A DNA stretch of 64,000 nt from the human T2T-CHM13v2.0 reference genome, Homo sapiens. Shown piece by piece: positions 31,403 through 61,143 of this stretch; position 1 is the stretch's first letter; each line of letters begins with the position of its first letter. The translations under genes were made by a program, and so were the position numbers. The notes under the pieces were generated by a model, which saw nothing but the letters and a program-made list of their open reading frames with translations, made no database searches and was not told where the DNA came from. Where the stretch lies: the NCBI RefSeq assembly GCF_009914755.1, contig NC_060928.1. One strand, given 5' to 3'.

Positions 31403-31714
31403 GCATAAATCAGAAGAGGAAAACCAGCTTCTGGACCTGGAGAGAGGATGAAAGGGAATAGGAATTGAGGGAAGCGGAAGGGAAGAATAAGGGACCCCTG
31501 GAGAGTCCCTACCAAGCCAGACATAACAAACAAAAGTCCTCTACTACTGAGGAAGACAGAACAGGGAAGCCAGCAGGGGAAGAAAAAGATGCTGCTGCTC
31601 TTGATGCCTCAAAAACAGCAAGGAAGAACCCAAGCAACTGATGTACACACCCTTGGAACAAATCTGCCCCAGAAGTACAAGACACACTCTTCGAATTCAT
31701 GGAATAAATGGGAG
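31403..31714 (+). pseudogene. Exon 1 (coding) of an unnamed TM + Sel1-like-repeat gene
   Basis: Acceptor ttgcctcag|, donor GAG|gtgagt. ATG 31448, in-frame TGA 31466-68, second ATG 31589. Ends ...SSNSWNKWE in phase 0, matching exon 2. Confidence 0.6.
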
Positions 31715-31834
31715 GTGAGTGTTCAATTCCAAGACACAAGACAGAATTGGGCAAGAGGGAGGAATGCTACTACTTGTAAGTCATAGTTACATAAAAACAG
31801 CAACCACATTGTGTTTTTCTGTAATGCTCTAGAT

Positions 31835-32296
31835 CTGTGGTCCCCAATATTTTTGGCACCAGGGACTGGTTTCCTGGAAGACAATTTTTCCACTGACTGA
31901 TGATTCAAGCACATTACATTTATTGGGAACTTTATTTCTATTATTATTACATTGTAATATATAATGAAATAATTATACAAACCATAATGTAGAATTGGTG
32001 GGAGACCTGAGCTTGTTTTCCTGTGACTAGAGGGTCCCATCTGGGGGTGATGGGAGACAGTATCAGATCATCAGGCATTAGATTCTCATAAGGAGTGTGA
32101 ACCTAGACCCCTCGCATGCACAGTTCACAATAGAATTCGCACTCCTATGAGAATCTAATGCTGCTGCTCATCTGACAGCGGGTGGAGCTTGGGCAGTAAA
32201 GCTCTGTAGCCCTGCTGATCACTTCCTGCTGTGCGGCAGGGTTCCTAGCAGGCCATAGACTGGTACCAGTCTGTGGCCCAGTGGTTGGGACCCCTG
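31835..32296. mobile_element. MER1A (hAT-Charlie)
   Basis: TIR-like ends and perfect 8-bp TSD ctctagat at 31827-34 and 32297-304. Confidence 0.88.
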
Positions 32297-32409
32297 CTCT
32301 AGATTTAAGTGTTTGTAGATGAAGCACTTTAGCTTTCCCGGAAAATGTATTGAAGATAAATTTATTCAAAGTTATCATACATTTAAAAAACCCCACAAAA
32401 CTCTTAACC

Positions 32410-32515
32410 CCTGTAACCCCAGTAGGTTTGGGAGGCCGAGCTGGGAGGATTGCTTGAGGCCAGGAGTTTGAGACCAGCACAGGTAATATTGAGAATCTCT
32501 GCTTTTACAAAACAA
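32410..32515 (+). mobile_element. FLAM/Alu left-arm fragment
   Basis: 'tttgggaggccgag...gaggccaggagtttgagaccagc'. Confidence 0.7.
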
Positions 32516-33521
32516 CTCTCAAAATTTTATATGTACACACAAATTTGGACTTCCTGAATTAACCAGTTAATAGATTTTAAAATACACATTAACCCAAGAG
32601 GTAAATAATTCATCAAAATTCAGCAAAAATAATTACTTGACACCAGATAGCTAGTTTTACATTTTCCAATTTTTTAGCCAGTTGCTAGAAATCACATAAA
32701 CACAGTCTGATTTTTATAAATTTGGCTGAAAAATTGAAGGACTATTATCAATTTCAGTTAACGTTTCTTTTTAAAAATTAGCTTAAGTTTGATATTGAAA
32801 ATATAAAGCTTTTTAAAAATTGAAATGCTGCATGAAAGGAATAAAAATCATGTTATAATGTTAGTAGAGTTCTCAACCAGCTCACTCATATTTTAACATA
32901 CTCTTACCCTAAGGTATTAAAGAGTGGATTATTTAAATACAGGTAAATAAAAGTGATAGGAGTTACAGAAATGGTGAAAAGAGGGAATGCTAGCAATTTT
33001 GTGGTGGCCAAATAAAAACAATGTATTTATCAGTAGATAAAAATGTGCAGATTAATTCTTATTTTAGATATCTGTGGCAGCTAGAAGTACAACTTTAGGC
33101 TCTTCAAGAATGACAGTTTTGATTTATATTATTCTCCACAGCTCCATTTAAGTACACTACTATGCTCTCTGCATTCCTTTTCTCTTACTTGATGGCTAAT
33201 AGGCATTGCCATTCCTTGATATCTCTCAAAGAAATAAAACTAGAAGGATTTTTAAGGAGCATAAAAATTCAGCTCCCAGCTGTGTACACACACCCATACA
33301 CACACACACTCACACTCACGAAGTTAGAGAGAAGCTCATAAAAACAACAACAATAAAAAGCCAGGGAATGTATAAATGTAGAACCTGAGTTTCTACTGAA
33401 TATTCTTAAACAGAAACTACTAAACTACTGTAATTGTTGTGCTAACAGACAGCACTGATGTCTGAGTGAGAGTTTAAATATATGAAGATTATAAGACTAT
33501 AGATAAATCTGCATATATAGC

Positions 33522-33818
33522 TTTTTTTTTTTTTTGAGACAAGCTCTCACTCTGTTGCCCAGGTTGGAGTACAGTGACACGATCATGGTCCACTGCATCC
33601 TCGACTTCCTGGGCTCAAGCAATCCTCCCTCCTCAGCCTCCCAAGTAGCTGGGACTGTACGTGCATGCCACTACACCCAGCTAATTTTCTCTAGTTTTTG
33701 CAGAGATGAGGTCTTGCTATATTGCTTAGGCTGGTCTCAAACCTCTGGGCTCAAGAGATCCTTCTGCCTTAGCCTCCCAAAATACTGAGATTATAGGCGT
33801 GAACCACCATGCCTGGCC
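33522..33818 (-). mobile_element. AluJ
   Basis: Reverse Alu with J diagnostics (gggctcaagcaatcctccc). Confidence 0.88.
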
Positions 33819-35149
33819 ACATATAGCACTTGTAAAAAAATGTTATAGTAATATATGCATGTGGTACAAAATTGAATGGTTATGCAGTAATCAGAAATCC
33901 CTCTATCCTAACCTTCATCCACCCAATCCTCCTCCTAGAGGCAACCACAATTAGCAATATCTTGAATATTTTTTCAGAGATACAACAAGAAAGATTTTAA
34001 TCTCCCTTTAGTCCCTCAGTTGAAACTTAAGAGGTTTAGATTTCCGCTGACTTAAAAACAATGCAATGGAATTCTGGTCTTTGGTTCAGATCTGAAAACA
34101 ACTTCCATTTATCAGTCCAGAAAACTGAGAACTTACTGGTTATATCACTAATGGTTCAGGATTCCTCCTTAGAAGAGAGTTCTTTTCTCTAGCAACAAGA
34201 TAAATAGCTGATTTCTTGGAAGCTGTCCTTTCTTTATAGGCCCTATTTCATTAGTTCATTGCCTGGTAATTACAGCTGCATGGAAATAAAAATGTAAAAT
34301 GAGTGTGATTTCCTTTTATAGGTTGAATAATATGGGTAGCCCTGGATTGTGAAAGGAAACAGATTGCTCCTCGGTTTTTTTTATTATATCCAAGGTTTCC
34401 TATCTGCTTTGGGTGAATTATCACTAGTCACCTAAAAACACACTGATTAAAAAAAAGGGAGAAGTCACACATCTCCCTCCTGTGCAATGCTGATAAATTT
34501 ATACGGCTATTTAAATAGTCATATGAAATATCAATTATTAATAACAGCAGTAGATCTTTTGAGTTCTAAGAGCTTTAAAACTGATGATCTCTCCAAAACA
34601 TCTATAATTTGCAACTATTTACAGTACAGCAGAACGACCTCATGAAAATATTTATGGCTCTTACAGTGTCAAAATTTTGTTTTGTTTTGGCATTTACAGC
34701 AGTTAACTAAATGCTAGTTCTGTGTTAGTTCTCATTGCTATAAGTGTGGGAGTAAATTGAAACAATTGTGACAAACATACCATGATGGCAATGAACGATG
34801 AAAACATTATTTTCATTCCCTGCTTACATCGAAATTTTTCCAGGTATCAAACCAAGAGGTGGATTACTGGGTGCCATATAGGACTCTGCAGCTGAAAGCT
34901 CCTTTTAATTTTGGCAGAACAAATAGTTATAGTATACAATGATAGAATTGAAGGTGGAAATGTCACATCTCAGAAAGTATGCTAATAGTATTACTAGCTA
35001 TGAATTATTACCTTCAGTATGTGCCAGCAGGAAATCACATAGATCTAAACATGTTCAATACTTGTTTTCCTAGGTCAACCATCTAAGATGTTATTTGTCA
35101 TTATTTATAAATTATATTTGAATTTCTGAATATAAAGCAATCAATTTTT

Positions 35150-36420
35150 CTACTATTTAAGCTGAATTTTTATTTTCAAAGCTATGCACATACATAGCTT
35201 AAAAAGTCAAATATTTCACAGGGCTAATAATTTAAAAACAGCATTCTTCTGTTCCTTCCCCTGATTATTGCTCCTCAGAGAAAACCATTTTTAATTCCCT
35301 CAGCTCTTTTTCCTGGTGTCTACTGCTATAAGTCTAAGAACACTCATTTAATGCTATTTTTTCAAATTTTTATTATACTGTTGGTTAATTTCTTATTTCT
35401 AACCCCTGCCCTCCTACCACCTCAATCACAGTTACCTTCTCCTTCTCTTCTCAGTATAGCTACAGCTTTATTTGGCTAAACCAATGTTCAGTTTTCATTA
35501 TGACCAATTAGATATCATTCATAGCTGATGCATGTAGTATATCAGGATTGTAATTATTTCTTCTACACTTTGTTTTCTGGGTACTTTAAATTGTATCTTT
35601 TAAAAAAATTTTTGCTTTGTTTTCTGTGTGCTCATGGCTACCAGAGTCATCCTGTGTTGCTTCACAAAGTGTTGAGTTCCTCTTAATATAGTCTAACACT
35701 TCAGGAAATCTCAGTTTCCCTGTTGTCTTGAAGATACACTTTCCACCCTGCTGCTCCTATCTGGGCTGCTTGTCTTCCCCATCTGCCCCTCAGCTGTCTT
35801 CCTGGGATATCCTGTCACATCATCTGGGATATTTCCTTCACCTTCCTTCTGTCTGAGATCCTTATTCCTGGATCCCGAGACTTCCTCTTTATTGATTTAC
35901 TCTCTTGTTTCTGGTGGGGCATATTTTCCAGTAGCTTCCTGAGAGACTGCCTGAGAGGTGAACTTTGAGACCTTGCCCATCTGAAAACGTCCTGATTCTA
36001 CCATCGCACGTAATTTATAGTTAGACAGGGTGTAGAATTCTAGGTTTGCAATACTTCATTCTTAAAATTTGAAGGGATTCTTCTACTATGTTGCAGGTAC
36101 TAGTTTTGGTACTGAGACATCTAGTGCCTTCAGATTCATGCTTGTTGGTATGTGACCTGCTTTCTCCTTTCCACCTCTCCAGAAGCTTTTAGCATCTTCT
36201 TTTCTATTTGTGATGTTCTGAAGTTTCTCAGTCATATGCATTTATAGGACTGTTTTTCTTCCCATTGTGCTGGACACCTTGTATCATGGTGTCACCTTTC
36301 AGTTTGGAAACTCATGTTTTTTAGTTCTGGAAAATTTTCTTGAATCATTTGTTGAATACCTTCTTCCTCTTCTTTATTTTTTCTGATTTCTTTATGAGAC
36401 TCCCATTATTTGGAAGTCAG
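35150..36420 (-). mobile_element. Ancient L1ME-like fragments
   Basis: T-rich degraded L1 motifs ('ttcttaaaatttgaag', 'ctggaaaattttcttg'). Confidence 0.45.
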
Positions 36421-36759
36421 ATATCCTGGAAAAAAATGCCATAATTCTCTTTGACCTTTTTGTTGTCCTGTTCTCTCTCTCTCACGTGGCTTGTGAACCT
36501 AATTGTAAACTTGATCAGTAAAAACCATTGTGGCAGTGCAAAGGCAAATTCAAAATTGTTATCTCTGGTTATTTTTAGTGTTTTTTCAGCTATTTCAGTT
36601 TTGTCATTTATCAATGTATCTTATGTTTTTATATTCCTCAATAAATATTTGAGTGCCCTACACTGTTTTTTCCTGATGAATTGAAGCTAGGACAAACTAG
36701 AGATAATCAGTAAATTCATTAAATTGAGTTCAAATTCTGCTCCACTCAAACTTATTCCG

Positions 36760-37530
36760 TTTATTCATTCAAACATTAAAAGAACTACAGTGTATGAAGC
36801 AGTTAGCTGGGTAGTAGGTACACAAAAATAAATGAAAATAAACAAAATGTCTTTTTCTTTGTGGAAATTATAAAATGTGAATGTATGTGTATGGGGATAG
36901 ATGGGCAGGGGAGTATCATTGTTACTGCAATGGGGGTGAGTACACATGTTGTTACTGAAGAAAAGGAAGCTCATCTAACCCTGGCTTGGGGACAATTCAT
37001 TCACACTGTCTGTGGTCTATAGAATGGGTTGGAGGGCTCAGGACAGTCTTGGAGACGAACTAAAACACCAATGAATAATTCAGGTGAGATGGTAGTGGTC
37101 TGAATTAGGTCTGTGACAAGAAGGAGAAAAGTGAATTTTGAGACACTAGGAGTTTAATTAGATAGGACTTGAATTTCATTGAATTAGAGGAAGTGAAAGT
37201 GAGTTCTAAGGCAGAAGATAGTGAATTTAATTTTGGAAAAGTTTAATTTTATGTGGGATGTGCAAGTGGGGATTTGAATCAGAAGCTCAGAAGGGACAGA
37301 AGCCCTGGAAATAGATTCTTGGGTGTCACTCACATATGGTACTGTCTGGAGCCATGTGAATTGAGAGCACAGGAGGAAAGTGTGTCAACTCAACAAGGTC
37401 AGAGAAAGTTTGATGAAGAAACCTAAGGGAACATGGAGATTTAGAGGCTAGAAAGAGAAGAATATCCCACATATGTCAAGAGAAGAGAGGGTTAAAGAAA
37501 TGAATACTTGGCATGATCAAATGCTACCAT
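36760..37530. mobile_element. L2 fragments
   Basis: 'attcattcaaac' end and purine-rich L2-like body. Confidence 0.45.
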
Positions 37531-37700
37531 ACATTCATATAAGGCTTTATGATATGTGTGATTTTGCATATATTTTCTTACTTAATCCCTGTAATGGCTT
37601 TATGGTTCATCTATCTCACTTTTCCACTTTTTTCTAAAAGTGTTTAGATAAGAAAACGGAGGCCCAGGAACACAGCAATTTGTTCAAGATTACAAAAGTT

Positions 37701-38048
<348 letters not shown>

Positions 38049-38099
38049 TCAGGTGCAGAGTGGTGAGTCCAGACTGCAAAGTGGCGCAGTTAATGTGAG

Positions 38100-38570
38100 C
38101 CCTCACTGTGTGCAGGCACTGTGCTGAGTGCTTTGTGCACATTATCTCATTTAATTTTCAAATCTTATACTATAAACTTGTTAACATTATAATCCCCATT
38201 TAAGGAATGAGGTAGAGGAAGCTCAGAGGTTAAGCAACCTGCCCAAAGTCATAAAACCAGTAAATGGTAGAAGCAGAGGAATTCACGTCCATTTGCTGTA
38301 TGACACACGTATTAACAATTCCATCATTACGTATGAATTTCTTTCATCCAAAGACTTCCCTGATTTTTTTTTTTTTTGCCTACTAATGCTTCTGGGCTGC
38401 ATAAAGATAAAAATCTCAATAAATAATAGTTATTTTGAAAGGCCTACAATGTGGTGAGGTGCTCAACTAAATAATTTATTTGTAGTCTATTCACTCTTTA
38501 CAAACCTGAATGGGAAAGTATTTTTACCCCCATTTTACAGATGAGAAAACTGACCCCCAGAGATTAAATA
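38100..38570. mobile_element. MIR fragments
   Basis: 'caggcactgtgctgagtgcttt' and 'cccattttacagatgagaaaactga'. Confidence 0.65.
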
Positions 38571-39288
38571 ACAATACACATTGTACGCATGTTTCAAAAT
38601 ATCACTTGTACCCTTAAAAATTTTTTTAGAATCACATGGGTCCTATAAATATGTACAAATATTACATATCAAAATGTTTTTAATTAAAAAAAATAAGGAC
38701 AGAGTAGGCATTCTAGCTCAAATCCTTTTCCTTTTCTTCTTCTCTTCTTTCTTCCTTCCTTTCCTCCCTTAGCCAACCCTCCTTCCCCATCTCCTCTATC
38801 CTTCTCTTTCATTTGGCCTACTGCTTCTTAGGTGACAATAAGAGTGAATTTAGAATGAGGCCTTTAGGAATGGGATATAGGTCAAGGCACTGGGATTCAG
38901 AGGAGACAAGGGGTAAGCACTTTGCTAGTGTAATTGTAATGTTTGGAACTCAGTTAAAATGTTCACCAGACTCTCTGGTGCCCTGATATACCCACATAGG
39001 GGCTTGTGTGATTGAGAACTAAGGTTTTTAGACATTTAGTTTGAAATATAATTAACTGTGTATATCAAAGTTTGTAATTTGAGACTAATAATTGAGAATA
39101 AAATTGATGGATAATTAAGTAAAATAAAATATATCTTAGACATAAAGAATAAGATACCTTAGTGGTCATTCATAATTTGTTTCATTTTTATATAAAAATT
39201 ATTTGCTTCCCATACACAAAACCTGAGTGCTCATCTACTTGATGATTTATGACACAGAACTGGAGTTACTTATGTCAAAGCTCTGCTT

Positions 39289-39589
<301 letters not shown>

Positions 39590-40061
39590 CGAAGCTCTAC
39601 TTAGAAGGACAGCAGTGCTCTATGTTCAAGACAGAGCTTTTCTCTGTGCCTCAAAAACCAGTTGAAAAAGAGCATTGCAATATTATGTGTTAACTGTTCT
39701 GTAGACCAAAAATGTTGGTTATATTGATGGCAAAACCTGAAAGAAATCCACAACGCAGAATTAGGTAGATACTGCCCCCTCTCCCTTGGAACTTTATACA
39801 TTCCGCATTTTTACTAAAATGCTTATGATGCTGTTTCACGATTTGTTTATATCTCTGCTCTGCAACTTTGAAATGCTTGAAAGCAAGGTTTAGGTCATAT
39901 GTTTATCTTTGTAACCACAGAGTTTAGCACAAATTATGTCCTCAAGTTTACAGATTTAACTAACCATAGTCAGGGACTCAAATATTGTGTAGCCAGGCAT
40001 ATGTTCTAAACCAGAAATTGTCCCAGTGTTTTCCTCACTTCACTTAGGATCACATATGGTG

Positions 40062-40355
40062 TTTTTTTTTTTTTTTTTAATACAGAGTCTCGCTCTTGTC
40101 ACCTAGGGTGGAGTGCAGTGGCACGATAATGGCTCACTGCAGCCTCAACCTTCTAGGCTCAAGTGATCCTCCTACCTCAGCCTCCTGAGTAGCTAGGACT
40201 ACAGGCATGCACCATTACTAGATAATTTTTATATTTTTTGTAGAGACAGGATCTTGCTATGTTGCCCAGACTAGTCTCCAGCTTCTGGGCTCAAGTGATC
40301 CTGCTGCCTCAGCCTCTCAAAGTGCTGGAATTACAGGTGTGAGCCACCACACCTA
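40062..40355 (-). mobile_element. AluJ
   Basis: Reverse Alu. Confidence 0.88.
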
Positions 40356-46720: not shown

Positions 46721-48421
46721 GCTGTGTGTGTGAGGGAGAGAAAGACAGATATTCCCTAATGTCTTTTGAGTCTTTATACTTTTCTATGGCATTTATTGTA
46801 TCCAATATCTCATGTGTTTTACTCATTGTCTGTTTCCTCATTTCTCTATCCTCATTACAATATAAGCTATAATAGAGCAGGACATCTTGCTTGTTTCACT
46901 GACTATTTTATCTACAGTGATCAGAACAGTGTTAAACACATTCAAAACAAATACTGAATAAATGCAATCATTTCAGAAAAGATTTGAGGAATCTCAAAAA
47001 CAGACATCCATCTGCTATGAAACCCTGTAACATACAGAATTACTGTAAAAGGCTGTAGTGTATTCATGAAACAGAATCCAGAGATTACTGTATAGGAAGA
47101 AAAAAATTAGAACAGTCCTACCAAACATACACCAAAAAGCAAACAAAAATTCAGCAATATACAAAGAATATTATTAGTATTTAATATATATACACATAAA
47201 CACAAAGACTGTCATACAGATTTTGTCATATGTGGTTATGTATAACCACCAATAATCACCAATTTTCAAGTTCAGTTCTTGGTCTTGGAGTCAATGATAG
47301 ATCTGTACCCTTCATGACAGCACAAGAGACCTGGGTTTTTGGGGTAGATGCAGCATTCCTTTCTTCTCTTAGAAATACATTGCACCTGAAAGGGAAAATG
47401 GTCAACCCCACTGTATTTTTTCCAGATTATGAGCTCCTCCTTAGAAGCCAGCCAAGCATGCCCAGATGATGGGTTAAGGCTACTGAGCTTTCCATGGTGC
47501 TAGTGCAGTTTGCAGTCTTGCTGTATTTCATAGTTGCCCCACAGAATTTATTTCCCTGTCAGCCATGGACAGCTGTATGAATTGACATCTCAGAGGGTAT
47601 CTGCCAAGTCTCTGGAAATGCTAATGCCCATGCTGATTAGGTTGGACAATGTCAACTTGTTCTGGGCATCAATCCATTGAGCTACAAGCTTCTCATGATG
47701 GGAAAAGAGGGCTTCCTGAAGAGAAGTAGACAGCATGCTCAAACTGCTAAGAAGGGTGATGACAAAGCTCCTGCTAAGGCCCTGGTTCTTTTAGGAATTA
47801 TCCTCATATTGTCAGCTCAGGCTATGGTTTGGGCTGTGAGATCTCATCTTCCTTCATCTTCTGTGGACCCACTGGCTTGCCAAGACCTCTTTAGGAACGA
47901 AGCAGTCTGAGGAAGTGCAGTCTGAGGGTCTGTCATTTCTATAGAAGCAGCTGGAGATATTGGGAAAATGGGCCAGGATTGTGGCTTCTCCAGACTGCAA
48001 CAGAGCAGGACAGGAATTTTTCTCTGCTCCAAATCTCAGCCCCTCACCATGTCCCTGCCTAAACAACAAACACATACATTCTTTTTTTCACTTCCGCTTT
48101 TGCTTCTGCATCAGTTGTTTTTCTTTTACAAACTGTCAAGATCCTATTGATCAGCATCCAATTCATTTAATTATGCAATCCAGTTATCTTGTATCACCTA
48201 GGAAAAGTACATATAAGACTGTCTTAAAATAAAAGACTAGTGACAATAAAGATTTTTTGCCCAACAGAGGCCATTGAAGGATACACTTCCTCTTTAAATC
48301 ATGTGAAATTCATCCTGGAATGCTTTTCTCATAGAATATACTCATTTCTTTCATATCTGAACCATAGCTGAAGTAGTAGATTCCCATGCTTTTCCTCCTG
48401 TCTCATTTTTCTTTTTTGTAG

Positions 48422-48563
48422 CTCCTGGCCACAGTGGGAGCCATGATCTCTCTCCTTTACATGTGGCTGTATTCCCAGAGCTTTCATTTCCATGTGGCAC
48501 ATTTTTATGCTCATTTTGGGTACCCCAGTGCTCAGCATATTGTTAGGCAAAGATACGTGAAAA
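48422..48563 (+). pseudogene. Exon 2 of the Sel1-like gene (TM helix plus start of SLR)
   Basis: Long polypyrimidine tract with tgtag|, donor A|gtaagg. Encodes LLATVGAMISLLYMWLYSQSFHFHVAHFYAHFGYPSAQHIVRQRYVK; phase 0 to 1. Confidence 0.8.
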
Positions 48564-48764: not shown

Positions 48765-48810
48765 GAGCTGGTGTAGTGAAGGATGAAGAGAAGGCAATGC
48801 ATTGGTTTAG
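48765..48810 (+). pseudogene. Exon 3 of the Sel1-like gene
   Basis: ttttgtttacctag| ... TTAG|gtaaga. Encodes (R)AGVVKDEEKAMHWF(R), the SLR 'GxGVxxDxxxAxxWF' motif; phase 1 to 2. Confidence 0.85.
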
Positions 48811-50130: not shown

Positions 50131-51343
50131 AATTTACATTTATGTTTCAGCAATTGGAAATAGTGCTTAAGGGTCAGTTTACGTGTTATTGAATTTCTAA
50201 CATTCCCAGATAGTCCTTTCCAGCATTTTGATTGCCTGTATAGTTTGGAGAAAAGAGTATAATTATATTAATATTTGGAAAAGCTGATGAATTGATTGAA
50301 ACAAATACGCAACTAATTTTTTTAAAAGTACTGTACTTGTTTCAAGTAAGAAAAACATTTTTTTTTTTTTTGAGACAGAGTCTCCCTCTGTCACCCAGGC
50401 TGGAATGCAGTGGCGTGATCTCAGCTCACTACAACCTCCTCCTCCTGGGTTCAAGCAAGCCTCAGCCTCCCAAGTAGCTGGGATTATAGGCATGTGCCAC
50501 CATGCTCGGCTAATTTTTTTTTTATTTTCAGTAGAGACTGGGGGTTAGTCAGGGTTCTCTAGAGGGACAGAACTAATAGGATAGATATTTATATATAAAG
50601 GGGAGTTATTAAGTAGTATTAACTAACATGATCTCAAGTCCCACAGTAGGCCATCTGCAAGCTGAGAAGCAAGGAAGCCTGTCTGAGTCCCCAAGCTGAA
50701 GAACTTGGAGTCCAATGCTTAAGGGCAGGAAGCATCCAGCATGGGAGAAAGATGTAGCCTGGGAGGCTAAGCCAATCTAGCCTTTTCACATTTTTCTGCC
50801 TGCTTTTATCCTAGCTGCGACAGCAGCTGATTAGATTGTGCCCACCCAGATTAAGGGTGGGTCTGCCTTTCCCAGCCCACTAACTCAAATGTTAATCTCC
50901 TTTGGCAACACCCTCACAGACACACCCAGGATCAATCCTTTGCATCCCTCAATCCAATCAAGTTGACACTCAGTATTAACCATCACAAGTCCACCCCTTG
51001 TCAACTTTAACCGATACACATCTCCTGAGATCATACATAATCTTCAAATAAAAGCAATAATAAGCTCATAATTATGCCTAACATAATGCAACTATCCTTC
51101 ATACAGCCAGAAATGCACCACTCCCCAACCCAAATACTCTTACATAAAGTTAATGATGCTCGAATGCTGATATGAAGTAAATAAATCTTATGTCACATGA
51201 TAAACGAAAAAGGAAATAAAATGAAGTTATTTTCTTAGTACAAGTGTATATATGCACACACATGTTTTTAACAAAAGAAGGAGGAAATACTCATGACAAT
51301 TACAGTCTCCATTTCTGCAACTGGTCACGGGGCCATTGATGAT

Positions 51344-51487
51344 TACCTTCTTCTACTACCCATTCGTATTTCCTTTACCTTCATCAAGCACCTTAGCAGA
51401 TCATGGTTTTTTTCCTACCTTCTTCTGCTACTCATTCGTATTTCCTTTGCCTTCATCAAGCACCTTAGCAGGTCATGGTTTTTTTCT
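51344..51487. repeat. 72-bp tandem duplication inside HERV-L
   Basis: Two copies starting at 51344 and 51416 with a few mismatches. Confidence 0.9.
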
Positions 51488-54400
51488 TGGTGGAGTGACC
51501 CAAACCTTCATTCCTGAATGGTCTGGGCCAACTGCCTGGATTGGGCTATTGTAGTTTCCCATTGACCTTAATCACAAAGCATGATAATACTAAGAGACAT
51601 CCTAAGGGATCTCCTGTATTCCATACATACTCTTCCTTACCTCTGTTGTGGAGTAGTAGACTGACTTCATCTTGATAGCCCGGGTCAATCACCCTAGCCA
51701 ACACTGTAACTCACTTCTTAGCCTGTTGACTTAAAGGTAGGAGGAGCCTAAAGTGTCCAGTTGGCAATCTTAACTTCTAGTTTAATGGAATCACTGTGTC
51801 TCCTGGTGGCAACATTTCTCCCACTGGAACTAAGACCTCTAGGCCAGCAGAATGTAATGTCATGGAAACAGGAAGCAAAAATTTTGTTAGTGGATCACTA
51901 GGGGTGATGGTGAGTGGTGCCACTTCCATTTCCAACCCTTGATTCCTGGACCCATGAATCCTGGCTATGGGAGAAACAGTACCATATATTGAATGCTGAT
52001 TCAGAGCATACATGGCCTTTTGGAGAACTTTGCCCCAGCCCTGGCAAAGTATTGTCACCTAGTTGGCATTGTAATTGTGACTTCAAAAGGGCATTCCACC
52101 ATTCTATCAATACAGCTGCTTCAGGATAATGGGGAACATGGTAAGACCAATGAATTCCATGAGCACAAGTCCACTGCTGCACTTCTTTAGCCATAAAGTG
52201 AGTGCCTTGGTCAGAGGCAATACCATGACTGTGGATAAGGCATTCCGTGAGCCCATGGATGGTAGTCTTGGCAGAATCATTGCATGCAGGATAGGCAAAC
52301 CCATATCTGGAGTAAGTGTCTATTCCAGTGAGGACAAACCTCTGCCCTTTCCGTGATGGAAGAGGTCCAATATAATCAAGTTGCTACCAGGTAGCTGGCT
52401 GATCACCCCGAGGAATTTTGCCATATCGAGAGCTTAGTGTTGGTCTCTGTTGCTGGCAAATTGGGCACTCGGCAGTGGCCGTAGCCAGGGCAGCCTTGGT
52501 GAGTGGAGGTCCATATTGCTGAGCCCATGTGTAACCTCCACACCTGCCACCATGGCCATGTTGTTCATGGGCCCATTGGGCAATGACAGGAGTGGCTGGG
52601 GAAAGAGGCTGAGTGGTAACCACAGAATGGGTCATCTTATCCACTTGATTATTAAACTTCTCCTCTGCTGAGATACTTGTAGGTGAGCACTCACATGGGA
52701 TACAAATACAGTTTTTGATCACCTAGAGAGGTCTATCCACATACATCTTTCTCAAATTTCTTTGTCACCAATTTTCCAATCATACTTCTTCCAAGTCTCT
52801 GACCATCTAGCCAAACCATTGGCTACAGCCCATGATTCAGTATATAATTGCATATCTGGCCATTTCTCCTTCCATGCAAAGTGTACAACTAGGTGAACTG
52901 CTTGAAGTTCTCCTCACTGGGAAGATTTCCCTTCACTGCTGTCCTTCAGGGATGTCCTAGAAAGGGGCTGTAGTGCTGCAGCTGTCCACTTTCAGGTGGT
53001 GCTTGTGTATCGTGCAAAACCATCTGTCTTCTCTTAAAAAAACCCTAGTCTTCTCTTCCTCTGTCAACTGATCATAGGGAACTGCCCATAAGGCCATTGG
53101 TGTATGCTGTGGGAGAGAAGATAGGGTGGCAGGAGTGGAGACCATGAGCATTTGAACCACTTCCTCATGTAACTTACTTGTGCCTTCAGGACCCACTCGA
53201 GCCCAATCACGTATATACCACTTCCATTTAATAATGTAATGCTGCTGTGCATGACTTACTTTATAGCTAAATGGGTCATAAAGCACTCAGTTCATGATAG
53301 GCAGTTCAGGTCACATGATGACTTGATGACCCATCATTAAACATTCAGTTCCCACCAAAACCCAGTAACAGGCCAAGAGCTGTCACTCAAAAGGAGAGTA
53401 GTTATCTACAGAAGTTGGCAGGGCCTTGCTCCAAAATCCTGGAGACCTCCACTGTGATTCATCTATGGGGGCCTGGCAAAGGCTCCAAACAGCACCCCTA
53501 TCTGCCACTGACCCCTCAAACACCATTGAATCTGCTGGGTCATATGGTCCAAGTGGCAGAGCAGCTTGCACAGCAGCCTGGACCTGTTGTGGAGCCTTCT
53601 CCTGTTCTGGACCCCACTCAAAACTGGCAGCCTTTTGGGTCACTGGATAAATGGGCCAGAGTAACACACCCAAATGAGGAATGTGTTGCCTCCAAAATCC
53701 TAATAGGCCCACTAGGCATTGTGCCTCTTTTTTGGTTGTAGGAGGGGCCAAATGCAGCAACTTATCCTTCACCTCAGAAGGAATATCTTGACAGGCCCCA
53801 CACCACTGGATCCCTAGAAATTTGACTGAGGTAGAAGCTGCCTGAATTTTTGTTAGATGTATTTCCCATCCTCTGGCATGCAAATGTCTCACCAATAAGT
53901 CCAGTGTGTTTGCTACTTCTTGCCCACTGGATCCAATCAGCATAATGTCATCAATGTAATGGACAAGTTTGATATCTTGTGGAAGCGAAAGGCGATCAAG
54001 TGCTCTCCGAATAAGATTATGACACAAAGGCAGAGAGTTGATATACCCCTGAGGTAGGACAGAAAAAGGTATATTGCTGGCCTTACCAGCTGAAGGCAAA
54101 TTGCTTCTGGGGGGCTTTATGGACAGGAATGGAGAAAAAGGCATCTGCGAAGTCAGTGGCTGCATACCAGGTACCAGATGTGCTAATTTGCTCAAGCAAT
54201 GAAACCACATCTGGTACAGTTGCTGCAGTTGGAGTCACCACTTGGTAAAGCTTACAGTAATCCACTGTCATTCTTCAAGATCCATCTGTCTTCTGCACTG
54301 GCCAAATAGGAGAGTTGAATTAGGTTGTTGTGTGGATCACCACCCCTGTGTCCTTCAAGACTTTGATGGTGGCGCTAATCTCTGCAATCCCTGCAGGGAT

Positions 54401-56682
54401 GCGATATTGTTTTTGATTTACTATTTTTCTAGGTAGAGGCAGTTCTAATGGCTTCCATTTGGCCTTTCCCACCATAATAGCCCTCACCCTACCAGTCAGG
54501 GAGCCAATGTGGGGGTTCTGCCAGCTACTAAGTATGTCTATGCCAATTATGCATTCTGGCACTGGAGAAATAACCACAGGATGAGTCCAGGGACCCAATG
54601 GACCCACTGTATGTTGGACCTGAGCTAAAACTCCATTAATTACCTGACCTCCCTAAGCCTCTACTTTAACTGGAGAACCACAATGACATTTTGGGTCCAC
54701 TGGAATCAACTTCAGCTCAGAGCCAGTGTCCAGTAGTTCCCCAAATGTCTGATCATTTCTCTTTCCCCAGTGCACAGTTACCCTGGCAAAAGGCCAGAGG
54801 TCGACTTGGGGAAGGATGGGAGAAAAATTAACAGCATAAGTTGTCAGTAGTGTAGTGGGGTCCTTCCTTAAGGGGACATGTCCTCCCCTTCATTCAAGGG
54901 GCTCTGGGCCTGCAAACTGGCTCAAGTCTGGAAATTGATTGAGGGATCATGATTCTCTGTTTTTATAATTCAAATTAGTCTTTTGTCCATTCCATCTGGA
55001 AGTTTTCTGCTTGTCTAAATTGAGTAGGAATGCAGTACACTTCCCATCAATTTCACTTCTAGGAACACTGTGATTAATTAGCCATTGCCAGAGCTCTACA
55101 CAAGTCAGAATATTCTAATTTCTGCTTTGCCTCTGCTGTCCATTATAGTAGCTATGCCCACCTTGCCTTTGATGGTTAAGTGCCATCACTTGGCCTCTGC
55201 CACCTTGGGATCCAATTATTCTCATTCTATTTAAATTTTGTAGTTGAGTGACTGCCATTCCCACTGTTAGATCTGCCACACGGAGAAGAGCAATTACAGG
55301 ACTCTTCAAAGGTGCAGATGCTGCCCTCACAAATCTATTTTGCAATGCATTGGTCAAGGGTATATCTTCTGGACCCTCCCAATTGAAATATATAGGTCTA
55401 AAGTGACTCCAGCATCCTAATCTCCCTAAGCCTTTGGATCCCTTCCTCTACATTAAACCAAGGGAGATCAGGCATTTCCAGCTCGCTCACAGTGGGCCAT
55501 CGTTTAATCATATTTCAGCTAACTAAGCAAATAAACTATTGAATCTTTTTTAACTCCCCAAGCTGCAACATTAAATGCAGAATCCCTGCTTAGTGGACCC
55601 AAATCAATAAATTCAGCCTGATACAACTCTATTTTTTTCCAACATTACACCACACGCTTACTATCCATTCCCATGCCTGTTCTCCAGATTTCTGTTTACA
55701 TAAATTACAAAACTCAAGCAGTTCTTTTTGAATGTTGCACACCGCCTCCTGGATCACACTCTGAACCTCACATCTAGAGGCCTGCCAGGACTTTAGTTAT
55801 AGGTCTAGAGGCAAACAGGGGTATTGGGGGTGGCTCCTGAGGAGAATCAACATTATCTTGCCTGGCAACTGCCTCAGGGGAAGCCATCACTGTTGCCTCA
55901 GGCAGCATAGGGTTTACCTCCTCAGACAAAGGTGGAAAGACTGATGGCAGCATGGGTTGGGGAGGGGATGTTGCCACTACTGGGGATTTGGCAATTGTTT
56001 CTTCTGGCAAAAAAGTTTCATCAGAATTTACAAACACAGTGTCCCCAGTTTCATCAGGGTCCTCCCACACATCCTCATTCCAAGTTGCAGGGTCCCATTC
56101 TTTTCCAATCAATGCCCTCATTTTAATAGTAGACACCTGGAAAGGCCGTGCATGCACCTTTCATTGCAGGTCAGCCACTCATGAGAAGAGCTTGTGTCTG
56201 TTTTTTTGCAATTTCAGCTCTTTCTCTACAGGAGATAAGACTCAGGACAATCTTGGCAGACTTGAGGCTCAGTATCTGCTTCTGAAGCCAGGAGTTAGAA
56301 TCTCTAACTTCATAATTTTCTTTCATCACTTTGTCCACTGAACTTAGGAGCAACCAACCAACTTCATTATGTTCCTTGGTCCTTCACATATGGTCAAAGG
56401 TATTATGTATAGAGTCACTAGACTCCTTGCCTCTCATGAGCAGTGAATCAGGAGTGTCAAATGCATGTATTTTGCATAACTCTCTAAACAGTTCATGCCA
56501 AGGACTATCAGTGTTCTCCATAGTTTTAGAAGTAGAGTCCTTAGCATTTTGGGGTCTAATCATATTAAGCAGTGAACTCCATAAACCCCAAAACCATCCT
56601 TAATATTCTGTTCCTCTGGAACCACTCCTGGTACCAAAATCTGTATTAGTCAGGGTTTTCTAGAGGGAAGAACTAATAGGAG

Positions 56683-56686
<4 letters not shown>

Positions 56687-56720
<34 letters not shown>
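56687..56720. repeat. (TG)n microsatellite in the 5' LTR
   Basis: Direct reading. Confidence 0.95.
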
Positions 56721-56723
<3 letters not shown>

Positions 56724-57416
56724 GGAGTTATTAAGCAGTATTAACTCACCCAATCACAAGGTCCCACAATAGGCCATCTGCAAGCTGAGCAGCAAGGAAG
56801 ACAGTCTGAATCCCAAAGCTGAAGAACTTGGAGTTCGATGTTTGAGGGCAGGAAGCATCCAGAATGAAAAAAGAGTAGATTGGGAAGCTAAGTCAGCTAG
56901 CCTTTTCATGCACTTCTGCCTGCTTTTATCCTAGCTGCTCTGGCAGCTGATCAGATTGTGCCCACCCAGATTAAGGGTGGGTCTGCCTTTCCCAGCCCAC
57001 TGATTTAAATGTTAATCTCCTTTGGCAACACCCTCACAGACACACCCAGGATCAATACTTTGCATCCCTCCGTCCAATCAAGTTGACAGTATTAACCATC
57101 ACACAGGGTTTCACCATTTGGCCAGGCTAGTCTCGAACTCCTGACCTCAAATGATACACCCACCTAGACCTTTCAAAGTGCTGGGATTATGGGCATGAGC
57201 CACCATATCTGGCCAAGAAAAACATTTTTAATGAAGGAGGCTTATTATTTTTTGGCTAGATATATGGTAAGATAGAAGTAATGGTTTCTAGTAATAGTCT
57301 TTATTGGTGCTGTCCTTGGTTTTATGAAGGGGATGCTTTTTTATAAGGTTGTTTCTTTGTTTTCTATAGCATGCTTCCCCCCATCACCAGTTCCCTTTCT
57401 TCTTCCTCCTTTTCAG

Positions 57417-57503
57417 ACAAGCCTCCCAGCAGGACCATCCTGGTGCTGCCTTTAACCTTGCAGTAGGAACACTGAAAAACATGACTGCCTCCATGGAAGC
57501 AGG
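57417..57503 (+). pseudogene. Exon 4 of the Sel1-like gene
   Basis: Strong polypyrimidine tract with ttttcag|, donor GG|gtaata. Encodes (R)QASQQDHPGAAFNLAVGTLKNMTASMEA(G); phase 2 to 2. Confidence 0.85.
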
Positions 57504-58583
57504 GTAATAAAATTTGCTGTCTTTTCCCTTCTAGCTGACATGTCATTCTTTCCAAAGATGCCCCTCATATACTACCTGCAATTCACAGGCAAAAACATTT
57601 TTTATATAGCTCACTTTCTGCTCTTGCCTTTCTATGTTCTTACATTGCTGAGTTACAATAAAAGTCACAAAGCAAGGGAATGCAATATTCATATATGTGC
57701 ATATATCCCACTGACTAAATTCTTCAGGCATTCTGTGAGCCTGAGATGAAATGCTGGGTTATTTCATGGTCCTCACACTCTCCTGTGAATTCTTATGGCC
57801 CCCTTAAATATCATCTTTACAGCCTTACCACATTTTCTTATAAACAGAATAGAGCAGACACGAATATAAGGTAGAGAACTCTCTTTGGGCACAAATATCT
57901 TTAGTGTCTGTTGGACTAATCCTCTTGATTACTCACAGTTATAAAAATAAATATACCACTACTTTCTCTGGAGAAGATTTTCTTAATGCTTTTGAATAGT
58001 TCATAGTCTATGACATTTTTATTCAGCTATTTTGAGTCAGACACATTTTTTGATAGGGTCCCGAAAACAAACCATTAAACTTTCAGCTTGTTTTCTCTTT
58101 TTTTAAAGTAATGCAACTGACATCTACTTCATTTCCAATTAATGTGTACAACAACCTCCTGCAACTCCAGCATTTAATCTTCTACCTCAGGCTAAGAGGT
58201 AGACCAGGTTTAGAAAAAAAGTTCAGTAAGGGGCTGAGGATGGGGTGAATCTTTGGAATTTGTACAATAGTCAGGGATGTTGCCTGCACAATTGGTAATA
58301 AAATTTTGAAATGACCATTTTGAGGCAGCCAAGTCAAAATGGCGAAGCCAATATGTTCTACTTTACAACTGACGGTTACCAGATGGGAGGTTGTATAGAA
58401 TCCCTCTCCAGTTAGCACTCCCAAACCAAAATATAGAATTTGCTTGCAAGAGAGGGGTGCCTCCAACATTACATGAGATTCTTGGCTAGAAAAACTTCTC
58501 TAAATAGGGCAAAATAATCTAGCTAGGCTCTGGTCTTTTAAGAATATTTATTTGGGTAGCTCTGATTGTATTATGAAGATTCT

Positions 58584-60851
58584 TGTATTAGTCCATTCTC
58601 ATGATGCTATGAAGAAATACACGAGACTGGGTAATTAATAAAGAAAAGAGGTTTAATTGACTCAGTTCTGCATGGCTGGGAAGGCTTCAGGAAGCTTACA
58701 ATCATGGCAGAAGGGGAAGCAAACACGTCCTTCTTCACAAGGTGGTAGGAGAGAGAAGAATGAGAGCTGAGTAAAGGGGGAAGCCTCTTATAAAACCATC
58801 AGATCTTGTGAGAACTTACTATCACAAGAATAGCATGGGGGAAACCACCCCCATGATTCAATTACCTCCCACTGGGTCCCTCTCATAACACATGAGGATT
58901 ATGGGAACTACCAGTAAAGAGGGAGACTCAACCATACCATATCATTCTGCCCCATCCCCTCCCAAATCTCATCCTCACATTTCAAAATACAATCATGCCC
59001 TTCCAACAGTCCCCCAAAGTCTTAACTCATTCCAGTATTAACTCAAAAGTCCAAGTCCAAAGTCTCATCTGAGACAAGGCAAGTTATTTCTGCCTATGAG
59101 CCTGTAAAATCAAAAGCAAGTTAGTTACTTCCTAGATAACAATAGGGGTACAGACATTGGGTAAATACACCCATTCCAAAATAGAAAAATTGACCAAAAC
59201 AAAGGGGCTACCAGCCTTATGCAAATCTGAAATCTGATAGGGCCCTCATTAAACCTTAAAGTTCCAAAATGATCTCCATTGATTGCATGTCTCATATCCA
59301 GGTCATACTTACGCCAGAGGTGGGCTCCCACAGCCTTGGGCATCTCCGCCCCTGTGGCTTTGCAGGGTACAGCCACCCCTCCTGGCTTGTTTCATGGGCT
59401 GGCATTGAATGTGGCTTTTCCAGGTACAAAGTGCAAGCGGCCAGTGGATCTACCATTCTGGGGTCTGGAAAATGGTGGCCGTCTTCTCATAGTTCCACTA
59501 CTCAGTGCCCCAGTGAGGACTCTGTGTGGGGGCTCTGACCCCACATTTCCCTTCCACACTGCCGCAGCAGAGGTTATCCATGGGAGCCCTGCCATGTAGC
59601 AAACTTTTGCCTGGACGTCCAGTCATTTCCGTATATCTTCTGAAATCTAGGTGGAGGTTTCCAAAACTCAGTTCTTGACTTCTGTGCACCCACAGGCTCA
59701 ACACCACATGGAAGCTGCCAAGGTTTGGGGCTTGCACCCTCTGAAGCCATAGCCTGACATGTACCTTGGCTCCTTTTAGCCATGGCTGGAGCGGCAAGCA
59801 CACAGGGCACCAAATCCCTAGGCTGCACACAGCAGGGGGTCCCTGGGACCAGCCCAGGAAACCACTTTTTTCTCATAGGGCTCTGGGTGTGTGATGGGAG
59901 GGGCTTACATGAAGGTCTCTGACATGTCCTGGATACAGTTTCCCCATTGTCTTGGTAATTAACATTGGGCTCCTTGTTACTTATGCAAATTTATGCAGTG
60001 GGCTTAAATTTCTCCTCAGAAAATGGGGTTTTCTTTTCTATCACTTTGTTTGGCTGCAAATTTTCCAAACTTTTATGTACTGTTTTCTCTTTAACATTTT
60101 GCTACTTAGAAATTTCTTCTGCTAGATACCCTAAATCATCTCTCTCAAGTTCAAAGTTCCACAGATCTCTAGGTCAGGGGCAAAATGCCTCCAGTCTCTT
60201 TGCACGGCAACAGTGACCTTTACTCCAATTGCCAACAAGTTCCTCATCTCCATATGAGACCACCTCAGCCTAGACTTCATTGTCCATATCAATATTAGCA
60301 GTTTGGTTGAAGCCTTTCAACAAGTCTCTAGGAAGTTTCAAACTTTCCCACATTTTCCTGTCTTCTTCTGAGCCCTTCAAACTGTTTCAGCCTCTGCCTG
60401 TTACCCAGTTCCAAAGTTGCTTCCACATTTTCAGGTATCTTTACAGCAGTGCCCCACTCCTGGTACCAATTTACTATATTAGTTTGTTAATATGCCACTC
60501 TGAAGAAATAACTGAGACTGGGTAATTTATAAAGGAAAGAGGTTTAATCGACTCACAGTTCTGCATGGCTGGGAAGGCCTCAGGAAACTTACAATCATGG
60601 CAAAAGGGGAAGCAAACACATCCTCTTCACAAGGCAGCAGGAGAGAGAAGAATTAGAGATGAGCAAAGGTAGAAGCCCCTTATAAAACAATCAGCTATCA
60701 CGAGAACTTACTCACGATCATGAAAATAGCATGGGGGAAACTGCCCTCATGATTCAAATACCTCCCATTGGGTCCCTCTCATGACACATGGGGATTATGG
60801 GAACTACAATTCAAGATGAGATTTTGGTGGGGACACAGCCAAACTATATCA
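58584..60851 (-). mobile_element. Full THE1 (THE1D/MSTA-like) MaLR: LTRs 58584-58944 and 60475-60851 with ~1.5-kb internal region
   Basis: Paired LTRs with THE1 motifs and a typical non-coding internal sequence. Confidence 0.9.
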
Positions 60852-61010
60852 GTACTCATGATGAAACCCAGGTGAAATGGCAAGTGTTTCCCTCATCACC
60901 TTACAATGAGTTTAAACAGCTGGTACTCTGGCCCTTAACTCAAACTCTTGAATGTGCAGGTGCTTTTGGTTTACTCTTTCTTAGCACTACTAAATAACTG
61001 TTTCTTCTAG

Positions 61011-61143
61011 GGATGTAGAAATGCTCCTTAATGTTGCTGCAAAATGGGGGATCCAAGAAGCCCAAGAACTTCTGGAGAATGTTATTTGGACTAAAAGCAA
61101 GCTCTTGCCAACTGAAAGAACCAGGAGTTCTTATAAACCATAA
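61011..61143 (+). pseudogene. Exon 5 (terminal coding) of the Sel1-like gene
   Basis: tttcttctag|. Encodes (G)DVEMLLNVAAKWGIQEAQELLENVIWTKSKLLPTERTRSSYKP with TAA at 61141-43. Candidate poly(A) signals ATTAAA 61695 and AATAAA 63197. Confidence 0.8.

What the first reader, a model, noticed from the sequence alone, without database searches (positions are those of the whole stretch)
31448..61050. Signs that the Sel1-like gene is a decaying or unitary pseudogene in this lineage
Seen: the upstream ATG 31448 (A at -3) hits an in-frame TGA at codon 7 (31466-68), possibly from CGA. Without it the protein would be 224 aa. Positions where the SLR consensus has Gly read otherwise: IV-R-QRY (AGG), K-R-AGV (A|GA) and QQ-D-H (GAC), each one G>A from a Gly codon. 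'AAKWG' stands where 'AAxQG' is expected. Inference: relaxed selection after loss of function, while the downstream frame and splice sites survive, which suggests a recent loss.
Basis: partly seen in the sequence, partly recalled or inferred. Interest (0 to 1): 0.75.

Follow-up and report, generated by a model that had tools for sequence, protein, structure and literature searches.

The report
Open but damaged ancient Sel1 gene
The human lncRNA H2AZ1-DT carries the still-open reading frame of an unnamed membrane protein gene conserved across land vertebrates, but in humans two key structural glycines have become arginine, so it is probably a dying gene rather than a working one.

Summary
The five-exon frame is real. 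Exons at 31589-31714, 48422-48563, 48765-48810, 57417-57503 and 61011-61143 splice into 177 open codons with canonical splice sites. They align end to end with predicted Sel1-repeat proteins of placentals, marsupials, platypus, birds, reptiles and caecilians. The human genome holds this family only here.

- The ATG at 31448 and the TGA at 31466-68 exist, but the conserved start is the Met at 31589, so the TGA lies in leader sequence.
- The two Gly-to-Arg changes (residues 84 and 90) are real. They hit glycines found in all 60 clean non-primate models.
- The Asp in QQDH is old: placentals have D or N.
- The Trp in AAKWG is derived (Q, then R in gelada, then W).

Decay in the human lineage is plausible but unproven.
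- For it: the hallmark changes, broken marmoset and gelada models, no human protein model, and a curated lncRNA that skips the first two coding exons.
- Against it: no stop, frameshift or splice lesion, and no significant excess of amino-acid changes. A frame drifting neutrally since the Old World monkey split would survive only about 3-6% of the time.

Verdict: partly supported; a new member of a known kind.

The parts
31448..31468 (+). Upstream ATG followed by six codons and a TGA. It lies in the leader of the ancestral gene and acts at most as a short upstream ORF.
   Evidence: Sequence and translation. Orthologue starts.
31589..31714 (+). Coding exon A: conserved start Met plus 41 codons of a basic N-terminal tail, with donor GTGAGT. 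It is not part of the RefSeq lncRNA.
   Evidence: tblastn of the camel and squirrel models hits 31553-31723 at E 1e-11 and 2e-7.
48422..48563 (+). Coding exon B: hydrophobic membrane segment and the first half of the Sel1 repeat. It holds codon 84 (AGG, 48545-47, Gly to Arg) and codon 88 (GTG, 48557-59, Leu to Val). Its last base, 48563, is A where orthologues imply G. That base is the first base of codon 90 and also position -1 of the donor. Exon B is not part of the RefSeq lncRNA.
48765..48810 (+). Coding exon C, identical to an exon of NR_125923.1. It completes codon 90 (A|GA, Arg) and holds the loop and helix 2 of the repeat.
   Evidence: the hub annotation, and (E 0.54, 85% identity over 21 residues).
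57417..57503 (+). Coding exon D, identical to an exon of NR_125923.1. It holds codon 111 (GAC, 57433-35), an Asp shared with placentals.
61011..61143 (+). Coding part of exon E. The lncRNA exon runs on to 61188. It holds codon 146 (TGG, 61045-47, Gln to Trp) and the stop TAA at 61141-43, at the same place as in the panda and hyena models.

Best explanation
The locus is the single human copy of an old, unnamed tetrapod gene. That gene encodes a protein of about 165-175 residues: a short basic N-terminal tail, one hydrophobic membrane segment, and a small Sel1-like-repeat (SLR) domain with one canonical repeat plus flanking helices. In most tetrapods the protein is kept under purifying selection.

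In the human lineage the frame is still open, but the gene has most likely stopped working as an SLR protein.
- Two of the hallmark glycines of the only canonical repeat are now Arg. Position 8 is the helix-packing glycine and position 14 is the loop-turn glycine.
- An invariant Leu between them is now Val, and a conserved Gln is now Trp.
- The G-to-A change that makes Arg 90 also removes the consensus G at position -1 of the exon B donor.
- The curated human transcript starts at the H2AZ1 bidirectional promoter and uses only the last three coding exons. It cannot encode the start, the membrane segment or half of the repeat.

The three 3' exons of the lncRNA H2AZ1-DT are therefore fossil coding exons.

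Shown: orthology, the open frame, the derived residues, single-copy status, and the identity of the lncRNA exons with coding exons.

Inferred: loss of function, the timing (after the split from New World monkeys for residues 84, 88 and 90), membrane topology, and any effect on splicing.
For: - Family and age: the profile search gave 104 hits at E<=1e-3 among 1620 candidates, spanning placentals, marsupials, platypus, birds, crocodilians, turtles, squamates and caecilians.
- Sel1 membership of the orthologues: Pfam Sel1 scores above the 30.7-bit cutoff in 7 of 7 non-primate models scanned (34.6-43 bits), but only 25.7 in gelada and 28.1 in marmoset.
- Single copy: only this locus matches in the human genome (12 candidates scored, 4 at E<=1, all in the window).
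- Hallmark changes: G84, L88 and G90 are the same in 22 placental and 38 non-placental clean models, and human has R, V, R.
- Invariant sites overall: human differs at 4 of the 38 sites that are invariant (at most one exception) in 60 clean models. Leave-one-out gives a mean of 0.5, and every amniote has 2 or fewer.
- Where the changes fall: human changes do not avoid deeply invariant sites (4/40 there against 10/73 elsewhere). Pooled non-primate placentals do avoid them (16/679 against 141/1235). The share test gives p=0.063.
- Structural role: a passage of PMC3851747 says that SLR glycines 8, 14, 17 and 36 allow helix packing and turns. In the printed alignments to 6ok3, both positions are Gly in 9 of 9 repeats.
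- Other primates: the marmoset model switches frame inside exon B, and the gelada model drops the last 52 bases of exon B.
- Branch lengths: the three primates have the longest root-to-tip lengths (0.158-0.266, against 0.055-0.138 for 16 other placentals).
- Annotation: no human or ape protein appeared in the searches with exon B or exon E. RefSeq lists only a lncRNA that uses exons C, D and E (hub annotation).
Against: - There is no stop, frameshift, lost start or lost splice site in 177 codons and 8 splice dinucleotides.
- If the frame had drifted neutrally since the Old World monkey split, my rough estimate of its survival is 3-6%. Since the New World monkey split it is about 0.4-1.2% (divergences and indel rates are recalled, not computed).
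- The number of amino-acid changes is not significantly raised. Tajima tests against ground squirrel are non-significant with four outgroups.
- Human-gelada distance is 12/109, or 11/108 after removing an artefact. That is similar to cow-deer at 10/107 and hyena-meerkat at 15/109.
- The share test is only p=0.063.
- The marmoset and gelada evidence comes from automatic protein models, not DNA.
- The spliced human protein could not be scored against Pfam or folded.
Confidence: 0.55

Rival explanations
1. The human gene still works and is simply missing from the protein catalogue. Under this reading, the 177-residue membrane-anchored SLR protein is made from transcripts that include exons A and B. 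The Arg, Val and Trp changes would then be a lineage-specific change of function or a tolerated variation.
For: - The frame and all splice sites are intact over 29.5 kb, which is unlikely after long neutral drift.
- The start Met, the stop position and the C-terminal tail match the panda and hyena models.
- There is no significant rate acceleration.
- The family as a whole evolves fairly fast outside its core.
Against: - Three changes fall within seven residues at sites that are constant in 60 of 60 clean tetrapod models, two of them hallmark glycines.
- The curated transcript lacks exons A and B (hub annotation).
- No human or ape protein model was found.
- The marmoset and gelada models look broken.
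Confidence: 0.3
2. The gene died in the anthropoid ancestor, more than 40 million years ago, and the open human frame is a chance survivor. Under this reading, each lineage collected its own lesions: marmoset a frameshift, gelada damage in exon B, and human only missense changes.
For: - The marmoset and gelada models are broken.
- Changes shared by the three primates fit a long anthropoid stem (branch length 0.072).
- Marmoset changes hit deeply invariant sites as often as other sites (5/23 against 8/36).
Against: - Chance survival of the frame over that time is about 1% or less by my estimate.
- Marmoset keeps G84, L88 and G90.
- The primate lesions are inferred from protein models only and could be assembly or annotation errors.
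Confidence: 0.1
3. Only a C-terminal fragment is made. Under this reading, the annotated lncRNA is translated from the in-frame ATG in exon C into a 77-residue soluble piece that lacks the membrane segment and helix 1 of the repeat.
For: I assembled the transcript with a guessed end for exon 1. It has no ATG before exon C. Its second ATG opens the ancestral frame for 77 codons.
Against: - The end of exon 1 is my guess from a donor-like site.
- The first ATG opens a 25-codon out-of-frame ORF.
- A fragment starting in the middle of a repeat is unlikely to fold.
- There are no translation data.
Confidence: 0.05

Closest known systems
Unitary pseudogenes of ancient genes in human, such as TMEM274P and PFN5P (Mudge et al. 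2019, PMC6886504; passages seen)
   Same: - An old conserved coding sequence with intact orthologues in other vertebrates.
- No paralogue in the human genome.
- Not annotated as coding in human.
   Different: - This locus has no disabling stop, frameshift or splice lesion, only missense changes at hallmark sites.
- I did not find it by name in that paper's main text.
- I did not find it in the 8 of its supplementary files that could be searched. Files 1 and 8 were not searched.
lncRNAs that are fossils of ancestral protein-coding genes (Hezroni et al. 2017, PMC5577775; abstract and term searches)
   Same: Three exons of an annotated lncRNA coincide base for base with coding exons of a vertebrate gene.
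   Different: - Here the whole frame is still open.
- Placental orthologues are still coding, so any transition is recent and restricted to some lineages.
- The locus was not found in that paper's text or its 4 supplements by gene names or hg19-style coordinate prefixes.
SEL1L / Hrd3 and bacterial SLR proteins: EsiB c5321 (4bwr) and the Sel1 repeat protein 6ok3
   Same: - The same repeat type.
- The orthologue profile hits 6ok3 at 3.9e-35, 4bwr at 3e-30 and SEL1L chains at about 1e-13.
- It is a membrane-tethered SLR domain, as in SEL1L.
   Different: - It is much smaller, with one canonical repeat against 11 in SEL1L and EsiB.
- Its hydrophobic segment is N-terminal.
- It forms a separate orthologous group with no gene symbol. 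Names such as 'EsiB-like' and 'YbeT-like' are automatic.
Small human SLR proteins LRP2BP and DELE1
   Same: Short SLR-type solenoids in vertebrates.
   Different: - The similarity is only marginal (9fqr LRP2BP at E 9.9e-4, 8d9x DELE1 at E 8.5e-4).
- Neither locus appeared when the human genome was searched with the panda orthologue.

Membership tests
Sel1-like repeat proteins (Pfam PF08238) | A Pfam Sel1 match above the curated cutoff | tested here: inconclusive
   Orthologues pass: 7 of 7 non-primate models score 34.6-43 bits against a cutoff of 30.7. The four human exon translations, scanned one by one, gave no Sel1 hit (0 of 4). This is expected, because the repeat is split over exons B, C and D. 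The spliced human protein could not be handed to the tool.
Sel1-like repeat proteins (Pfam PF08238) | Hallmark glycines at SLR positions 8, 14, 17 and 36 (passage of PMC3851747) | tested here: not met
   I mapped the positions from the Pfam coordinates to human residues 84, 90, 92 and 111, which read R, R, G, D. Human therefore keeps 1 of 4. Placental orthologues keep 3 of 4, and non-placental tetrapods keep 4 of 4.
Sel1-like repeat proteins (Pfam PF08238) | Conserved small and aromatic residues of helix 2 (Ala, Trp, Ala) | tested here: met
   Human keeps A100, W103 and A107, as the orthologues do (alignment).
Unitary pseudogene | A functional orthologue in other species | tested here: met
   There are open models in more than 60 tetrapods. 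40 of 113 core sites are constant in 38 non-placental models and equal to the placental majority. Function itself is inferred from this conservation.
Unitary pseudogene | No functional paralogue or parent copy in the same genome | tested here: met
   A whole-genome six-frame search with P0004 scored 12 candidates. The 4 matches at E<=1 are all exons of this locus.
Unitary pseudogene | A disabling lesion (stop, frameshift, lost start or lost splice site) in the human copy | tested here: not met
   All 177 codons are open, the ATG and TAA are in place, and there are 4 GT donors and 4 AG acceptors.
Unitary pseudogene | No mRNA or protein of the ancestral form is made | not testable with these tools
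   Only the RefSeq table is at hand. Its single transcript lacks exons A and B.
lncRNA fossil of a coding gene | lncRNA exons that descend from coding exons of a conserved gene | tested here: met
   The NR_125923.1 exons 48765-48810, 57417-57503 and 61011-61188 are coding exons C, D and E (hub annotation).

The most novel reading that the evidence does not exclude
Human 4q23 holds an unannotated, still-translated gene for a 177-residue membrane-anchored Sel1-repeat protein. It would be the human copy of a tetrapod-wide gene that has never been named, because it is absent from the mouse and human protein catalogues. The two glycine-to-arginine changes would then mark a change of function specific to apes or humans, not decay.
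Probability: 0.25. Interest if true: 0.65.

Novelty: new member of a known kind. Interest (0 to 1): 0.45.

Why it matters
- A gene conserved from caecilians to cattle has no symbol and no literature under its automatic names. The likely reason is that neither the human nor the mouse catalogue lists it as coding.
- For annotators, this is an edge case. It should become either a new human unitary pseudogene or a missed protein-coding gene.
- It gives an origin for three exons of H2AZ1-DT, a lncRNA that cancer expression studies cite only by name.
- It would be a clear example of a gene caught between coding and non-coding states: open frame, damaged core, rewired promoter.
- The protein models also suggest repeated loss in mammals (canids, probably muroid rodents, anthropoids). 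That would mark the function as dispensable under some conditions and worth studying in species that keep the gene.

Tried and rejected
- Pfam on single human exons gave no Sel1 hit because the repeat is split. One reference was rejected for its stop codon and dropped.
- I first suspected that the exon at 31589 was not real. I rejected this because orthologue N-termini align to it.
- I first read the gelada model as keeping Gly 90. I rejected this because that Gly is read from the acceptor AG of an intron-extended exon.
- Rate-based support was weak. Tajima tests were non-significant, and pairwise distances resembled ruminant and carnivore pairs.
- Counting changes branch by branch needed ancestral states, which the machine does not offer. 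I dropped that analysis.
- Structure prediction of an orthologue was not accepted on either attempt, so there is no fold or fold search.
- The own genome could not be searched with an alignment, so I used one protein instead.
- Literature searches led nowhere:
  - H2AZ1-DT (8 papers) and LOC256880 (6 papers) appear only in expression or gene lists.
  - LOC511175, EsiB-like and YbeT-like gave 0 papers.
  - 'Unitary pseudogene' with Sel1 gave 1 unrelated paper.
  - Hezroni 2017 and Mudge 2019 do not name the locus in the parts I could search.
- The ESM Atlas gave only leads to Sel1 clusters in arthropods, flatworms and chordates.
Full report
**What is in the sequence**

An ATG sits at 31448, and an in-frame TGA at 31466-68 is its seventh codon. 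A second ATG sits at 31589.

Five stretches join in one frame: 31589-31714, 48422-48563, 48765-48810, 57417-57503 and 61011-61143. They give 177 codons ending in TAA at 61141-43, or 224 codons counted from 31448. Every intron starts with GT and ends with AG, and the acceptors have good pyrimidine tracts. The last three stretches are exactly the three in-window exons of the RefSeq lncRNA H2AZ1-DT (hub annotation). The first two stretches are not in that transcript.

**Is it a real gene relic**

Yes. The 47 residues of exon B alone found 19 proteins among 22 candidates. All were non-primate mammals and all carried Pfam Sel1, with the best at E 4.1e-17 and 83% identity.

A profile of twelve of these found 104 proteins at E<=1e-3 among 1620 candidates. 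They came from placentals, koala and Tasmanian devil, platypus, many birds, crocodilians, turtles, squamates, tuatara and caecilians.

The spliced human frame aligns with them from the first Met to the stop, and its last residues match the panda and hyena models. The first exon, which I had doubted, is homologous too. Camel and squirrel models hit 31553-31723 at E 1e-11 and 2e-7.

Pfam Sel1 passes its cutoff of 30.7 bits in 7 of 7 non-primate models scanned, at 34.6-43 bits. The family profile hits bacterial Sel1 proteins 6ok3 (3.9e-35) and EsiB 4bwr (3e-30), and SEL1L chains at about 1e-13.

Searching the whole human assembly with the panda protein scored 12 candidates. It gave four matches at E<=1, and all four are exons B, E, D and C of this locus. 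The gene is therefore single-copy in human.

The sources give the family only automatic names, such as 'EsiB-like', 'YbeT-like' and 'uncharacterized LOC'. A search of the paper library for three of these names found nothing.

**Anatomy of the protein (inferred)**

The orthologues have three parts:
- a basic N-terminal tail (6-10 Lys and Arg against 2-3 acidic residues);
- one strongly hydrophobic 19-residue segment (mean Kyte-Doolittle 1.7-2.3; human 1.34);
- about 110 residues with one canonical Sel1 repeat and further helices.

By the positive-inside rule, which I recall and did not test, this suggests a membrane anchor with the tail in the cytosol and the repeat domain on the other side. 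What the protein binds is unknown. By analogy with SEL1L and other SLR proteins, it would be a small adaptor for protein-protein contacts. I could not fold it, because structure prediction was not accepted.

- **Upstream TGA.**
  - Of 30 models with a recognisable first exon, 14 start exactly at the Met homologous to 31589. Three start up to four residues earlier and two start a few residues later. Eleven have longer and mutually different extensions.
  - By my count from that listing, 24 of the 30 keep the Met. Only the camel cluster reads through the stretch homologous to 31448-31588, and it has Pro where human has TGA.
  - The TGA therefore lies in leader sequence and says nothing about decay.
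- **Arg 84 (AGG) and Arg 90 (A|GA).** In 22 clean placental and 38 clean non-placental models, position 84 is Gly in all 60. Position 90 is Gly in 59, with one gap. Platypus and marmoset also have Gly at both. Both human changes are derived, and each is formally one G-to-A step from a Gly codon.
- **Asp 111 (GAC).** This is old. The placental models have D in 15, N in 5 and G in 2, and the non-placental models have G in 38 of 38. It is not a sign of decay in the human lineage.
- **Trp 146.** Placentals have Gln in 22 of 22, gelada has Arg and human has Trp. This fits CAG to CGG to TGG, with the last step at a CpG. The codon path is inferred.
Leu 88 is constant in 60 of 60 models and is Val in human.

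**Why these residues matter**

A passage of the EsiB structure paper (PMC3851747) discusses the SLR glycines at positions 8, 14, 17 and 36. Glycine 8 allows close packing of the two helices, and the other three make the turns.

I mapped these positions through the Pfam coordinates to human residues 84, 90, 92 and 111. Non-placental tetrapods keep four of the four glycines and placentals keep three. Human keeps one. In the printed alignments to 6ok3, both positions are Gly in 9 of 9 repeats.

The base change behind Arg 90 is also the last base of exon B. It replaces the consensus G at donor position -1. The rest of the donor, GTAAGG, is strong, so any effect on splicing is only a possibility.

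**Evidence on selection, for and against**

For relaxed constraint:
- Human differs at 4 of the 38 sites that are invariant, with at most one exception, in 60 clean models. Leave-one-out gives a mean of 0.5. The maximum is 4 and the next is 3, both in caecilians, and every amniote has 2 or fewer.
- Pooled non-primate placentals avoid the 40 deeply invariant sites (16/679 against 141/1235). Human does not (4/40 against 10/73), and neither does marmoset (5/23 against 8/36). The share test for human gives p=0.063.
- On a fixed species tree, the three primates have the longest paths from the placental root, at 0.158, 0.170 and 0.266. Sixteen other placentals range from 0.055 to 0.138.

Against relaxed constraint:
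- Tajima tests of human against ground squirrel give 12:9, 10:9, 9:9 and 11:10 with four outgroups. None is significant.
- Human and gelada differ at 12 of 109 sites, or 11 of 108 after removing an artefact. That is no more than cow-deer (10/107) or hyena-meerkat (15/109).
- The family evolves fairly fast outside its core, so counts of changes have little power.
- No orthologous DNA is reachable here, so dN/dS could not be computed.

**Other primates and other losses**

Only two named primate models exist among the 104 hits.
- **Marmoset.** The model follows one frame of exon B up to about 48525 and then the ancestral frame. It reads through the exon C donor and ends in a repeat-like exon at 60436-60555. 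This is what a one-base indel in exon B would produce.
- **Gelada.** The model drops 48512-48563 and reads 37 bases of intron before exon C. Its apparent Gly 90 is therefore an artefact, and residues 84 and 88 are unknown there.

Both models score below the Pfam cutoff. These are automatic protein models, so the lesions need checking in DNA.

The dog and golden jackal models look frameshifted in exon D. No mouse, rat or other muroid model is among the hits, although squirrels and marmots are. Two unnamed short-contig proteins look like degenerate copies. The gene may have been lost several times in mammals.

**How long could a dead frame stay open**

From the human coding sequence, 4.7% of random substitutions make a stop. 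I used recalled lineage divergences (0.031 since Old World monkeys, 0.05 since New World monkeys) and recalled indel-to-substitution ratios (0.10-0.15). With these, the chance that the frame, start and splice sites all survive neutral drift is about 3-6% and 0.4-1.2% respectively.

The open frame therefore argues against an old death. Three hits at strictly invariant core sites argue against full constraint. Neither pure reading fits comfortably.

**The annotated transcript**

I took the first donor-like site after the annotated start as the end of exon 1. This is my guess. The resulting lncRNA has no ATG before exon C. Its first ATG opens a 25-codon out-of-frame ORF, and its second opens the last 77 codons of the ancestral frame. 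As annotated, it cannot encode the start, the membrane segment or helix 1 of the repeat.

**Comparison with what is known**

The case belongs with human unitary pseudogenes of ancient genes (passages of PMC6886504). It also belongs with lncRNAs that are fossils of coding genes (abstract of PMC5577775). It meets two criteria for a unitary pseudogene: conserved orthologues and no paralogue. It fails the usual third criterion, a disabling lesion.

I did not find the locus in either paper's main text, in the four supplements of the second paper, or in the eight searchable supplements of the first. Files 1 and 8 of the first paper were not searched. Papers that mention H2AZ1-DT or LOC256880 list it only in expression or gene tables, judged from search listings and one passage.

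**Verdict**

| Reading | Weight |
|---|---|
| Human copy of an unnamed tetrapod Sel1-repeat membrane protein gene, formally open but probably no longer functional as such, with its last three exons reused in H2AZ1-DT | 0.55 |
| A still-working, unannotated human gene | 0.30 |
| An old death with a chance-surviving frame | 0.10 |
| Translation of only a C-terminal fragment | 0.05 |

It is a new member of a known kind and of moderate interest.

Noticed in passing
window 60436-60555 and 58584-58664: The last 40 residues of the marmoset model map to 60436-60555 (75% identity, one stop in human). A similar stretch lies at 58584-58664. This looks like two copies of an interspersed repeat, one of which is used as a terminal exon in marmoset.
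   Followed up: partly
P0041 (golden jackal) and P0044 (dog), against window exon D 57417-57503: Both canid models leave the family frame inside exon D. One ends early and the other returns to the frame later. This is what a shared one-base indel would produce, and it suggests an independent loss in canids.
   Followed up: partly
hits: No mouse, rat or other muroid model is among the 104 family hits, although squirrel, ground squirrel and marmot models are. Two unnamed short-contig proteins (P0092, P0093) look like degenerate copies with Glires-like residues. The gene may also be lost in muroid rodents.
   Followed up: no
window 48383-48421, the intron just before exon B: The cattle isoform models P0008 and P0009 take their N-terminus from the sequence homologous to this intron end. 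They are upstream-extended exon B models, not a different first exon.
   Followed up: partly
P0031 (southern elephant seal): This 273-residue model combines the Sel1 family with a mitochondrial carrier domain (PF00153). It is probably a fusion of neighbouring genes made by the annotation.
   Followed up: no
ESM Atlas: The nearest feature clusters to the panda orthologue are Sel1 proteins of about 217 residues from arthropods and flatworms (scores 0.96 and 0.94). This is a lead that the family may be older than tetrapods.
   Followed up: no
L005 279-465, outside the window (H2AZ1 promoter side): The annotated start of H2AZ1-DT lies in very GC-rich sequence. The stretch up to the first donor-like site (TCG|GTATGT) has no ATG.
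   Followed up: partly
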